In this document: piece by piece, positions 47,185 through 48,524 of the stretch
How positions within the stretch are numbered: position 1 is the stretch's first letter
Layout: each line of letters opens with the position of its first letter
DNA from: Giardia intestinalis
Taxonomy: Eukaryota
Length of the DNA: 64,000 bases
Direction: 5' to 3' (one strand)
Assembly (NCBI GenBank): GCA_000002435.2
Contig: CM018793.1
Program-made: the position numbers and the translations under genes
Notes under the pieces: model-generated
Told to the model about the DNA's origin: nothing
Databases searched by the model: none
The model's input: only the letters and a program-made list of their open reading frames with translations

Positions 47185-47847
47185 ATGATGCCTGCTTATG
47201 AAGCAACACTAGATGACTGTAAGCACGTGTATCTTCCTGACGAAGACACATTTCTCTTGATAGACACCCTAACAAAGCTCTCTGGGGAACTGCATCCTCA
47301 ATCGTTTGTGGAAATAGGTTCTGGATCTGGTGTTGTCTCTGTGCACATTCTACAGGTTTTCCCTGGGATCCGTGAGGGTCACGCTGTCGATATTTCTCCT
47401 CATGCCGTGGACATGACTCGGCGAACAGCTTCTCTGAATAATGTACCTCTTTGTGTTCACGAGGGATCTTTCTTCGAGCCGTTAGACGCTTACACAAACT
47501 CTTCCAAAGCCACACGATTTGACCTAATAGTTTTTAACCCACCGTATGTGCCTTCTTCGGAGACAGATCCCGCCCTTGGACCACTTGATCTGGCCCTGGC
47601 TGGAGGCAAGAACGGCTCCGAGGTGATGCTTAAGTTTTTCGAGCTTCTTCCCTCTTACTTGGCTCTTGATGGTCATTGTGTCACGGTAGCAATAGAGGAA
47701 AATGATATTGCAGCTCTCGAGCAAAATGGAAAAAGCAAGGGGTTTATAATGAGAATTCTCGCAGAAAAGCGCCTTCAATCCGAACACTTATATATCCTTT
47801 GCTTTTCCTGGGACAAAACCATGCTCTGTTCCAAAAAACTACCATAA
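47185..47847 (+). CDS. HemK2/Mtq2/N6AMT1-family protein methyltransferase (eRF1 glutamine-N5 methyltransferase type)
   Basis: HVYLPDEDTFLLIDTL, SAM motif VEIGSGSGVVSVHI, catalytic LIVFNPPYVPS, and ALAGGKNGSEVMLKFF. All align to N6AMT1/Mtq2 (VYEPAEDTFLLLDAL, VGSGSGVVSAFL, FNPPYV, AGGRNGREVMDRFF). Confidence 0.8.
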   Translation: MMPAYEATLDDCKHVYLPDEDTFLLIDTLTKLSGELHPQSFVEIGSGSGVVSVHILQVFPGIREGHAVDISPHAVDMTRRTASLNNVPLCVHEGSFFEPLDAYTNSSKATRFDLIVFNPPYVPSSETDPALGPLDLALAGGKNGSEVMLKFFELLPSYLALDGHCVTVAIEENDIAALEQNGKSKGFIMRILAEKRLQSEHLYILCFSWDKTMLCSKKLP

Positions 47848-47864
47848 CTCAAACAAAAACTCCG

Positions 47865-48524
47865 ATGATTAGGCAGGACGTTCCCTCATACAAACTCTTT
47901 AACTATGCACTGCCACCGGACTACGACCCGCTAGATATACAAGAATTTACTACGGTGTTGCTTGTTGACGTTCTTGCAGCGCATAGAAGAGGCTATAACC
48001 CAGATAAGCTATTGACCATTGGGACAGGGGCTGGCCGCTTGTCCGGGGTATTCTTGCGAGTATACGACGGTCAAACTGTTGCGCTATCTGTTGATAGCAC
48101 ACAAGCATCCCTGTCTGCAGCCGTCGCAGGCCATAACATTAACGGGTATGGTGGACGCTCGGTTTACTGTATTGGGCAAGACCTTTCTGTGCTTGAAAAT
48201 GTGCCAACTGCAGCACGATTCTCTCTGATAGCATACAACCCCTACAACACGGACACCTTGCACCCAGGGAGACTACAGAGACAAGGTAGTGGTCAATCGC
48301 TCCTTGATCAGACTTTAGCAGAATTCATAGCACTGACGGCAGATTACCTAGATGAGAAGGGAAGGGCATTCATAGTCATTGAAACTACTAAAGAATTAGG
48401 AAGACATCAGAGGGCTGCAGGGCAGTTAGGCTTGCACTTCAGAATTGAGGGGTCTCGCCCATTCGAGGGCCACGACTACAGCGTTGTTCTTCTTTCGAGG
48501 CAAAAGACAGATGTATGCGCCTAA
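47865..48524 (+). CDS. Divergent HemK2-like methyltransferase paralogue, with NPY in place of NPPY
   Basis: It starts 17 nt after the stop of the upstream HemK2-like gene. The track start at 47799 overlaps that gene; the first ATG after its stop is 47865. It has the same layout: LPPDYDPLDIQEFTTVLLVDVL, LTIGTGAGRLSGVFL, LIAYNPYNTD. Confidence 0.5.
   Translation: MIRQDVPSYKLFNYALPPDYDPLDIQEFTTVLLVDVLAAHRRGYNPDKLLTIGTGAGRLSGVFLRVYDGQTVALSVDSTQASLSAAVAGHNINGYGGRSVYCIGQDLSVLENVPTAARFSLIAYNPYNTDTLHPGRLQRQGSGQSLLDQTLAEFIALTADYLDEKGRAFIVIETTKELGRHQRAAGQLGLHFRIEGSRPFEGHDYSVVLLSRQKTDVCA

What the first reader, a model, noticed from the sequence alone, without database searches (positions are those of the whole stretch)
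47185..48524. Tandem pair of HemK2/Mtq2-like methyltransferases; downstream copy has NPY instead of the catalytic NPPY
The first gene (47185-47847) has every N6AMT1/Mtq2 hallmark, including FNPPYV. The second starts only 17 nt after its stop (ATG 47865). It keeps the same N-terminal (LPPDYDPLD..LLVDVL), SAM-loop (IGTGAGRLSG) and catalytic-position layout, but reads IAYNPYNT. Either this is a divergent duplicate with an altered or inactive substrate pocket, or a different NPPY-family enzyme placed in tandem (e.g. a METTL5-like rRNA m6A enzyme, which also uses Trm112). The 17-nt spacing implies overlapping transcription units.
Basis: partly seen in the sequence, partly recalled or inferred. Interest (0 to 1): 0.5.

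Follow-up and report, generated by a model that had tools for sequence, protein, structure and literature searches.

The report
Divergent Mtq2 methyltransferase paralogue in Giardia
Next to Giardia's release-factor glutamine methyltransferase (Mtq2) sits a conserved but very divergent copy, found only in the Giardia duodenalis group, that keeps the cofactor-binding motifs but has lost residues Mtq2 needs to methylate eRF1, so it probably does a different, still unknown job.

Summary
The window is Giardia duodenalis. Gene 1 (47185-47847) is the Mtq2/HemK2 orthologue. Gene 2 (47865-48524, GL50803_001902, annotated hypothetical) starts 17 nt after its stop and reads IAYNPYNTD where all 120 Mtq2-family proteins examined read NPPY.

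Gene 2 is a full-length but remote homologue of Mtq2 (BLASTP E 1e-10; hhalign 98%, 204 columns). It is not METTL5-like. It is a real gene: it is intact and syntenic in five assemblage-level lineages, with dN/dS 0.04-0.09. Motifs I-IV are its most constrained part (34/36 invariant positions against 109/183 elsewhere).

It keeps most SAM contacts (GxGxG, D77, D106-L107, N125, T30, Y20). It lacks residues whose mutation inactivates yeast or human Mtq2 (D20/D28, E51) and the second proline of NPPY.

An exhaustive profile search found no orthologue outside the G. duodenalis complex. In a more distant Giardia-like contig, Mtq2 abuts glycogen synthase with no gene between them.

Best reading: a lineage-specific, neofunctionalised Mtq2 paralogue that still binds SAM but no longer methylates eRF1. 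A non-catalytic partner role is the main rival. This is a new variant of a known kind, of moderate interest.

The parts
47185..47847 (+). Gene 1: Giardia Mtq2/HemK2/N6AMT1 orthologue (220 aa), annotated 'Glutamine methyltransferase' XP_001706727.1
   Evidence: It passes the NCBIfam TIGR00537 HemK2/MTQ2 cut-off (108.8 vs 87 bits) and the Pfam MTS cut-off (42.1 vs 23). The best PDB match is human N6AMT1, E 1e-22.
47536..47547 (+). Gene 1 motif IV, N118-P-P-Y121
   Evidence: Read directly from the sequence. NPPY is present in 120/120 family members.
47848..47864 (+). 17-nt spacer between the two ORFs. It contains AAAAACT (47855-47861), which is invariant in all five lineages and lies 3-9 nt upstream of the gene-2 ATG. 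It is a candidate A-rich initiator.
   Evidence: Sequence and five-way DNA alignment. In the assemblage B contig and the assemblage E-like contig a 1-nt indel extends gene 1 so that the ORFs overlap by 8 nt.
47865..48524 (+). Gene 2: divergent Mtq2-like class I methyltransferase-fold protein (219 aa), GL50803_001902, annotated 'hypothetical protein' or 'Methyltransferase domain containing protein'
48018..48035 (+). Gene 2 motif I, I52-G-T-G-A-G57 (SAM glycine loop). The preceding residue is T51 where the family has Glu/Asp.
   Evidence: Mutation of human E51 nearly abolishes activity (PMC6796863).
48093..48095 (+). Gene 2 D77, the motif II acidic residue that binds the SAM ribose in N6AMT1
   Evidence: Invariant column across both families. 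The role of human D77 is from PMC6796863.
48237..48248 (+). Gene 2 degenerate motif IV, N125-P126-Y127-N128, in place of N-P-P-Y
   Evidence: The whole stretch FSLIAYNPYNTD is invariant over five lineages.

Best explanation
Gene 2 is a functional paralogue of the adjacent Mtq2 (HemK2/N6AMT1) gene, restricted to the Giardia duodenalis complex. It most likely arose by tandem duplication, diverged in a burst, and has since been held under purifying selection.

Shown: it is homologous to Mtq2 over its full length; it has a class I methyltransferase fold closest to N6AMT1; it is conserved in order and orientation in five assemblage-level lineages; and its cofactor and catalytic motif regions are the most constrained part of the protein.

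Inferred: it still binds S-adenosylmethionine, because it keeps the GxGxG loop, the ribose-binding Asp (D77), the adenine-binding Asp-Leu (D106-L107), the motif-IV Asn (N125) and the N-terminal Tyr and Thr (Y20, T30).

Inferred: it no longer methylates the GGQ glutamine of eRF1. It lacks the N-terminal Asp (yeast D20, human D28), the motif-I Glu (human E51), the Asp that opens strand beta4, the second Pro of NPPY and the AxAGGxxG loop. All of these are near-invariant in the family, and two of them are required for activity in yeast or human Mtq2.

The most likely mechanism is therefore a SAM-dependent transferase with a remodelled acceptor pocket acting on a substrate other than eRF1. That substrate is unknown. 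The gene is expressed either from its own A-rich initiator embedded at the 3' end of gene 1 or together with gene 1.
For: Homology: BLASTP E 1e-10; hhalign 98.1%, E 6.7e-14, 204 columns; weak full-length hits to archaeal HemK2 equivalogs NF011530 and NF011529.

Real gene: the ORF is intact and the order Mtq2 - gene 2 - glycogen synthase(-) - 419-aa gene is kept in four other lineages. NG86 dN/dS is 0.035-0.087, against 0.044-0.156 for Mtq2 itself.

Constraint is focused on motifs I-IV: 34/36 invariant positions against 109/183 elsewhere, Fisher p 1.2e-5.

Residue mapping comes from the alignments set against the published SAM contacts and mutants of human N6AMT1 (PMC6796863) and yeast and E. 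cuniculi Mtq2 (PMC3152332). Family frequencies: NPPY 120/120, acidic motif-I residue 120/120, D[TS] 118/120, beta4 Asp 118/120.

Lineage restriction: the word-indexed search found only five proteins at 77-100% identity. The exhaustive profile search of 1.84 billion representatives found only the family itself plus one spurious repeat protein. In a Giardia-like contig (L008: Mtq2 41%, glycogen synthase 67% and the 419-aa gene 40% identical), Mtq2 directly abuts and overlaps glycogen synthase, with no gene 2 and no tblastn trace of it.

Gene-2 orthologues score 35-39.5 bits against G. duodenalis Mtq2, but only 22-28 bits against Mtq2 of the two other Giardia-like lineages and of Carpediemonas.
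Against: No biochemical, transcript or proteomic evidence was available, and no paper in the held library mentions the gene.

The confident AF2 model depended on an MSA that included Mtq2 proteins. With the five orthologues alone the pLDDT was 38, so the fold match is partly circular.

The origin is unresolved:
- NJ bootstrapping never joined gene 2 to Giardia Mtq2 (0/500).
- Two archaeal-type HemK2 proteins score as high as Giardia Mtq2.
- An archaeal-type HMM scores about the same as the diplomonad HMM.
- Gene 2 keeps the motif-III Asp-Leu that all three Giardia-genus Mtq2 proteins lack. This fits an older duplication or a reversal.

Loss of E51 and the I78->S change could also mean weakened SAM binding. 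Mutation of either residue inactivates the human enzyme.
Confidence: 0.55

Rival explanations
1. Non-catalytic paralogue (pseudoenzyme or 'prozyme'). Gene 2 has lost methyltransfer activity and acts as a structural or regulatory partner. It might heterodimerise with Mtq2, or compete for or substitute the Trm112 activator. Precedents are METTL14 with METTL3 and the TbPRMT1 prozyme.
For: Gene 2 has lost residues whose single mutation inactivates Mtq2: yeast D20N, and the human E51 and I78 mutants. Its motif IV is degenerate. The tight tandem linkage, a 17-nt spacer or an 8-nt overlap, favours co-expression. An invariant 13-residue stretch, GHNINGYGGRSVY, leads into strand beta3, the strand that Trm112 zips onto in N6AMT1. 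The prozyme precedent in another parasite appears (bioRxiv 10.1101/776112).
Against: The glycine loop, the ribose-binding Asp, the adenine-binding Asp-Leu and the motif-IV Asn are all retained and invariant. Motifs I-IV are significantly more conserved than the rest of the protein. That pattern is the one expected for a protein that still uses the cofactor site. No interaction data exist, and no multimer modelling tool was available.
Confidence: 0.25
2. Independent origin. Gene 2 is not a duplicate of the neighbouring gene but an archaeal or prokaryote-type HemK2 acquired by lateral transfer, which happens to lie next to Mtq2.
For: NJ places gene 2 with short (~190 aa) prokaryote-type HemK2 sequences and never with Giardia Mtq2. 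Percent identity is highest to P0070 and P0080. P0035 and P0033 tie with Giardia Mtq2 in BLASTP bits. The only NCBIfam hits are archaeal equivalogs. Gene 2 keeps the ancestral motif-III Asp-Leu.
Against: Landing immediately beside its only homologue in a genome of about 5000 genes would be a rare coincidence. Gene 2 scores about 10 bits higher against G. duodenalis Mtq2 than against other metamonad Mtq2 proteins. Its best single HMM score is to the diplomonad profile, 36.9 bits. Its composition is ordinary for the window, GC 0.488 and GC3 0.459. It shares a short C-terminal tail, S-W/R-x-K-T..C, with G. duodenalis Mtq2 only. The trees have little power at about 20% identity.
Confidence: 0.1
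3. A different NPPY-family, Trm112-dependent enzyme such as a METTL5-like 18S rRNA m6A methyltransferase, placed in tandem.
Against: hhalign against human METTL5 aligns only 15 residues at 7% probability; the METTL5 sequence was verified against PDB 6h2u. No Pfam or NCBIfam RNA-methyltransferase family is hit. The closest sequences and structures are all HemK2-type.
Confidence: 0.03
4. A decaying duplicate or spurious ORF with no function.
For: Several catalytic residues are lost. The gene is annotated 'hypothetical'. Its GC3 is low.
Against: The ORF is intact in five lineages whose synonymous sites are saturated (pS 0.47-0.74), with dN/dS 0.035-0.087, as low as or lower than Mtq2 itself. There are long invariant motif blocks.
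Confidence: 0.02

Closest known systems
Mtq2 / HemK2 / N6AMT1 (KMT9), the Trm112-dependent eRF1 N5-glutamine methyltransferase
   Different: Gene 2 reads NPY(N) instead of NPPY. It has Thr for the motif-I Glu, Thr for the N-terminal Asp of the ED[TS] motif, and Ser for the Asp that opens beta4. It has no AxAGGxxG loop and no C-terminal Glu (human E204). It has a 4-residue insertion before helix alpha1. It falls below every curated family cut-off and is found only in the G. duodenalis complex.
Degenerate methyltransferase paralogues that partner an active subunit (METTL14 with METTL3, EPPL instead of DPPW; the TbPRMT1 prozyme)
   Same: A paralogue with a corrupted motif IV, kept under selection alongside the canonical enzyme.
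   Different: Those partners have eroded cofactor sites and a demonstrated heterodimer. Here the cofactor motifs are the best-conserved part, and no interaction is known. The METTL14 motif is recalled from general knowledge and was not tested here.
Bacterial PrmC/HemK and PrmB (RF1/RF2 and L3 glutamine methyltransferases)
   Different: They carry an N-terminal helical domain that is absent here. Gene 2 gives only a marginal hit to TIGR03534 (E 0.1).

Membership tests
HemK2/Mtq2/N6AMT1 (gene 1) | Score above the curated family threshold (NCBIfam TIGR00537) | tested here: met
   108.8 bits against a cut-off of 87. Human N6AMT1 is the best PDB sequence hit, E 1e-22.
HemK2/Mtq2/N6AMT1 (gene 1) | NPPY motif IV, N-terminal YxPxED[TS], acidic residue before GxGxG, AGGxxG loop | tested here: met
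   All are present. The exception is the motif-III Asp (human D103), which is not alignable in Giardia-genus Mtq2.
HemK2/Mtq2/N6AMT1 (gene 2) | Score above a curated family threshold | tested here: not met
   No TIGR00537 hit. NF011530 scores 22.7 against 243, and Pfam MTS scores 18.8 against 23.
HemK2/Mtq2/N6AMT1 (gene 2) | Full-length homology to the family | tested here: met
   hhalign 98.1%, E 6.7e-14, 204 columns. BLASTP to gene 1, E 1e-10.
HemK2/Mtq2/N6AMT1 (gene 2) | NPPY catalytic tetrapeptide | tested here: not met
   Gene 2 reads N125-P-Y-N128, invariant in five orthologues. NPPY is present in 120/120 family members.
HemK2/Mtq2/N6AMT1 (gene 2) | N-terminal Asp (yeast D20, human D28) and motif-I Glu (human E51), both required for eRF1 methylation | tested here: not met
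   Gene 2 has T29 and T51 at these positions. The mutant data are from PMC3152332 and PMC6796863.
HemK2/Mtq2/N6AMT1 (gene 2) | Methylation of the eRF1 GGQ glutamine; activation by Trm112 | not testable with these tools
   This needs enzyme assays.
Class I (Rossmann-like) SAM-dependent methyltransferase (gene 2) | Seven-strand fold with a GxGxG motif I and an acidic motif II residue | tested here: met
METTL5 (18S rRNA m6A methyltransferase) (gene 2) | Sequence-profile similarity to METTL5/PH1948 and an NPPF motif | tested here: not met
Pseudo-methyltransferase / prozyme (gene 2) | Loss of cofactor-binding residues together with a stable complex with the active paralogue | tested here: inconclusive
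   Of 11 mapped SAM contacts, 8 are kept and 3 changed (E51->T, I78->S, P124 lost). Complex formation is not testable here.

The most novel reading that the evidence does not exclude
Gene 2 is an Mtq2-derived subunit invented within the Giardia duodenalis lineage. One version is a 'prozyme'-like partner that modulates or replaces Trm112-type activation of Mtq2. The other is an N-methyltransferase that uses a previously undescribed N-P-Y motif IV on a new substrate of the translation apparatus. Either would be a parasite-specific addition to an otherwise universal translation-termination modification system.
Probability: 0.25. Interest if true: 0.6.

Novelty: new variant of a known kind. Interest (0 to 1): 0.35.

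Why it matters
Mtq2-Trm112 is a conserved modifier of the translation-termination factor, and paralogues of Mtq2 are unusual. Here there is a young, lineage-restricted paralogue that keeps its cofactor site but has rebuilt its acceptor pocket, with the NPPY signature shortened to NPY.

It is a natural experiment on how much of motif IV is needed for N-methyl transfer, and on how a new methyltransferase specificity, or a regulatory pseudo-subunit, is born.

It is confined to the G. duodenalis complex, which contains the assemblages that infect humans. That makes it a candidate lineage-specific marker or target. The practical impact is speculative until a substrate or partner is known.

Tried and rejected
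- AF2 on the five orthologues alone failed (pLDDT 38). It was replaced by a merged MSA, which is partly circular.
- phmmer and profile searches of gene 2 against PDB sequences gave no methyltransferase hit, only chance matches to nitrite reductase and ribosome-inactivating proteins.
- The exhaustive profile search returned only the family itself and P0126, a 2101-aa bacterial repeat protein whose score is inflated by 15 repeats. I rejected P0126 as spurious.
- The gene downstream of Mtq2 in L001 is a CCCH/U2AF-like protein, not a gene-2 relative.
- The shared-derived-character count was uninformative about origin: 2 columns shared with Giardia Mtq2 against 5 that keep the family consensus. The NJ bootstrap and the clade-HMM scoring did not resolve the origin either. 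A first NJ script timed out.
- Poly(A) signal search: there is no + strand AGTRAA from 46678 to 50211, that is, after either gene. Its presence in other lineages is inconsistent, so it gives no conclusion on mono- versus bicistronic transcripts.
- Literature and supplement searches for GL50803_1902 / GL50803_001902, for Giardia with Trm112, and for Giardia with N6AMT1/HemK2/Mtq2 found nothing on this gene.
- Rfam found nothing in 43000-52000.
- Base composition gives no sign of recent foreign origin.

Full report
**Where we are.** The window is Giardia duodenalis. Gene 2's product is 100% identical to 'hypothetical protein GL50803_001902'. Gene 1's product is identical to a Giardia 'Methyltransferase', whose 90% cluster includes 'Glutamine methyltransferase' XP_001706727.1 of isolate WB. 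The surroundings fit this. There are two variant-specific surface protein genes with the CRGKA tail upstream, a glycogen synthase on the minus strand directly downstream, and then a 419-aa gene and an IFT122-like gene.

**Checking the observation.** Gene 1 is 47185-47847 (220 aa, VFNPPYV). Its TAA ends at 47847. Gene 2's ATG is at 47865, 17 nt later, and gene 2 ends at 48524 (219 aa, with IGTGAGRLSG and IAYNPYNT).

The two products are related beyond chance:
- BLASTP gives 23% identity over 201 residues, E 1e-10 for the single comparison.
- hhalign of the five-member gene-2 family against 30 diverse Mtq2 proteins gives 98.1% probability, E 6.7e-14, over 204 columns, which is essentially end to end.

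MAFFT places NPYN directly under NPPY. 'NPY' can therefore be read as a one-residue deletion or as two substitutions.

**Gene 1 is the Mtq2 orthologue.** It exceeds the curated cut-off of NCBIfam TIGR00537, HemK2/MTQ2 (108.8 vs 87 bits). It exceeds the Pfam MTS cut-off. Its best solved relative is human N6AMT1, E 1e-22. One nuance: Giardia-genus Mtq2 proteins (gene 1, P0153, P0011) have Ser, not Asp, where human D103 contacts the adenine N6. The alignment of that loop differs between MAFFT and HMMER.

**Gene 2 is a real, constrained gene.** Contigs from four other G. duodenalis-complex lineages carry the same arrangement: Mtq2, gene 2, glycogen synthase(-), 419-aa gene. Their gene-2 products are 89, 81, 80 and 77% identical to the window's. 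One of these lineages is assemblage B, by the GL50581_1904 name.

Synonymous sites are close to saturation (pS 0.47-0.74). dN/dS is 0.035-0.087 for gene 2, against 0.044-0.156 for Mtq2 and 0.01-0.04 for the two downstream genes.

Conservation is concentrated in the methyltransferase motifs. In motifs I-IV, 34 of 36 positions are invariant, against 109 of 183 elsewhere (Fisher p 1.2e-5). The longest invariant runs are:
- LLTIGTGAGRLS (motif I)
- GHNINGYGGRSVY (leading into beta3)
- FSLIAYNPYNTD (motif IV)
- AFIVIETTKELG

A decaying copy is excluded.

**What kind of protein it is.** On its own, gene 2 falls below every curated threshold (Pfam MTS 18.8 vs 23; weak full-length hits to archaeal HemK2 equivalogs). 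It gives no methyltransferase hit against PDB sequences.

**What is kept and what is lost.** The SAM contacts of human N6AMT1 are Y23, T29, E51, G53, D77, I78, D103, L104, F121, N122, P124, V151 and R154. Single mutation of E51, D77, I78, D103 or N122 almost abolishes eRF1 methylation (PMC6796863). In yeast Mtq2, Y15F, D20N and N122A are inactive (PMC3152332).

From the alignments, gene 2 keeps:
- Y20
- T30
- G53/G55/G57
- D77
- D106-L107
- an aromatic residue (Y124) before N125
- N125-P126

It has changed:
- the N-terminal Asp (to T29)
- E51 (to T51)
- I78 (to S78)
- the Asp that opens beta4 (to S120)
- the second Pro of NPPY
- the AxAGGxxG loop
- the C-terminal Glu (human E204)

Among 120 Mtq2-family proteins these features are NPPY 120/120, acidic motif-I residue 120/120, D[TS] 118/120 and beta4 Asp 118/120.

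So the cofactor half of the site is largely intact and strongly conserved, while the acceptor half is rebuilt. I infer that the protein still binds SAM and does not methylate the eRF1 GGQ glutamine. Whether it transfers a methyl group to something else or is a SAM-binding non-enzyme cannot be decided by computation.

**Distribution and origin.** The word-indexed search of 5.8 billion proteins found only five proteins, all Giardia at 77-100% identity. The exhaustive profile search of 1.84 billion representatives found only the family itself and a repeat-inflated bacterial protein.

Searching with a more distant Mtq2 (P0011) turned up P0153. Its contig, L008, has 58.8% G+C. On it, Mtq2 is 41% identical to gene 1, glycogen synthase 67% identical and the 419-aa gene 40% identical to their window counterparts. 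[quoted passage not shown] The contig keeps the local gene order, but Mtq2 (4001-4663, +) overlaps the 3' end of glycogen synthase (4619-6811, -) by 45 nt. There is no gene 2 and no tblastn trace of one. A second Giardia-like contig (L001) and Carpediemonas (L009) also lack a neighbouring gene 2.

Gene-2 orthologues score 35-39.5 BLASTP bits against G. duodenalis-complex Mtq2, but only 27.7, 21.7 and 24.9 bits against P0153, P0011 and Carpediemonas Mtq2. This is what a duplication within the G. duodenalis lineage, or later gene conversion, predicts. A 2-3-fold rate acceleration after duplication would be enough to reach 23% identity (my estimate from those identities).

Several results count against a simple story:
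- NJ bootstraps never join gene 2 to Giardia Mtq2 (0/500).
- Two archaeal-type sequences tie in score.
- Clade HMMs do not discriminate.
- Gene 2 keeps the motif-III Asp-Leu that all Giardia-genus Mtq2 proteins lack.

Composition gives no hint of foreign origin. Given the adjacency, I regard tandem duplication as most likely. Its timing and the transfer alternative remain open.

**Expression architecture.** The spacer is 17 nt in three lineages. In two others (assemblage B and the 89%-identity, assemblage E-like contig) the ORFs overlap by 8 nt, because a 1-nt indel moves gene 1's stop. AAAAACT, 3-9 nt upstream of gene 2's ATG, is invariant in all five. This is compatible with Giardia's short A-rich initiators (general knowledge).

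Giardia's poly(A) signal is AGURAA and the median 3' UTR is 59 nt (PMC9014877). No + strand AGTRAA occurs between 46678 and 50211, so neither gene is followed by the canonical signal, and the other lineages are inconsistent. Whether the two are separate overlapping units or one RNA is untested.

**Verdict.** Public annotation already labels the protein 'methyltransferase domain containing' in some isolates, and no paper in the held library discusses it. It is a new variant of a known kind, a lineage-restricted and selectively maintained Mtq2 paralogue with an NPY motif IV. It is of moderate interest until a substrate or partner is found.

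Noticed in passing
window 44683-46155 (+), repeat array 44770-46020: A variant-specific surface protein gene (Pfam VSP, CRGKA tail) contains 11.9 perfectly identical copies of a 105-bp unit, which encodes a 35-aa Cys-rich module. A second VSP gene lies at 41792-42991 (+).
   Followed up: partly
window 46156-47184: About 1 kb between the VSP stop and the Mtq2 ATG has no long ORF, which is unusually long for this compact genome. 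Rfam found no RNA family in 43000-52000. Logan contigs of this locus tend to break about 440 nt upstream of Mtq2.
   Followed up: partly
window 47467-47472 (gene 1 S95-F96); L008 and L001 Mtq2: Giardia-genus Mtq2 proteins have Ser-Phe/Tyr/Leu where other Mtq2 proteins have the adenine-contacting Asp-Leu of motif III (human D103, which is essential in the human enzyme). Carpediemonas and gene 2 keep Asp-Leu. MAFFT and HMMER align this loop differently.
   Followed up: partly
L008 4619-4663: In a high-GC (58.8%) Giardia-like contig from SRR30592944, the convergent Mtq2 and glycogen synthase genes overlap by 45 nt at their 3' ends. This is reminiscent of the gene overlaps reported for G. muris (PMC7641422). 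The organism was not identified.
   Followed up: no
L002 586-593, L007 647-654 versus window 47848-47864: A 1-nt indel changes gene 1's stop between lineages. The spacer is 17 nt in assemblage A, L004 and L005. In assemblage B and the assemblage E-like contig there is an 8-nt ORF overlap and an 8-residue longer Mtq2 tail.
   Followed up: yes
window 46678-50211, + strand: No AGTRAA poly(A) hexamer follows either gene 1 or gene 2, although many other genes in the window have one within a few tens of nt of the stop. Only single-mismatch variants (AGAGAA at 48551, AGCAAA at 48577) follow gene 2.
   Followed up: partly
window 47185-48524: Gene 1 and gene 2 have the lowest third-position GC (0.42 and 0.46) of 14 genes sampled in the window, whose range is 0.47-0.60. 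This may reflect low expression.
   Followed up: no
window 48129-48167 (gene 2 residues 89-101): The 13-residue stretch GHNINGYGGRSVY, leading into strand beta3, is invariant across all five lineages. It has no counterpart in Mtq2, and beta3 is the strand that Trm112 pairs with in N6AMT1.
   Followed up: no
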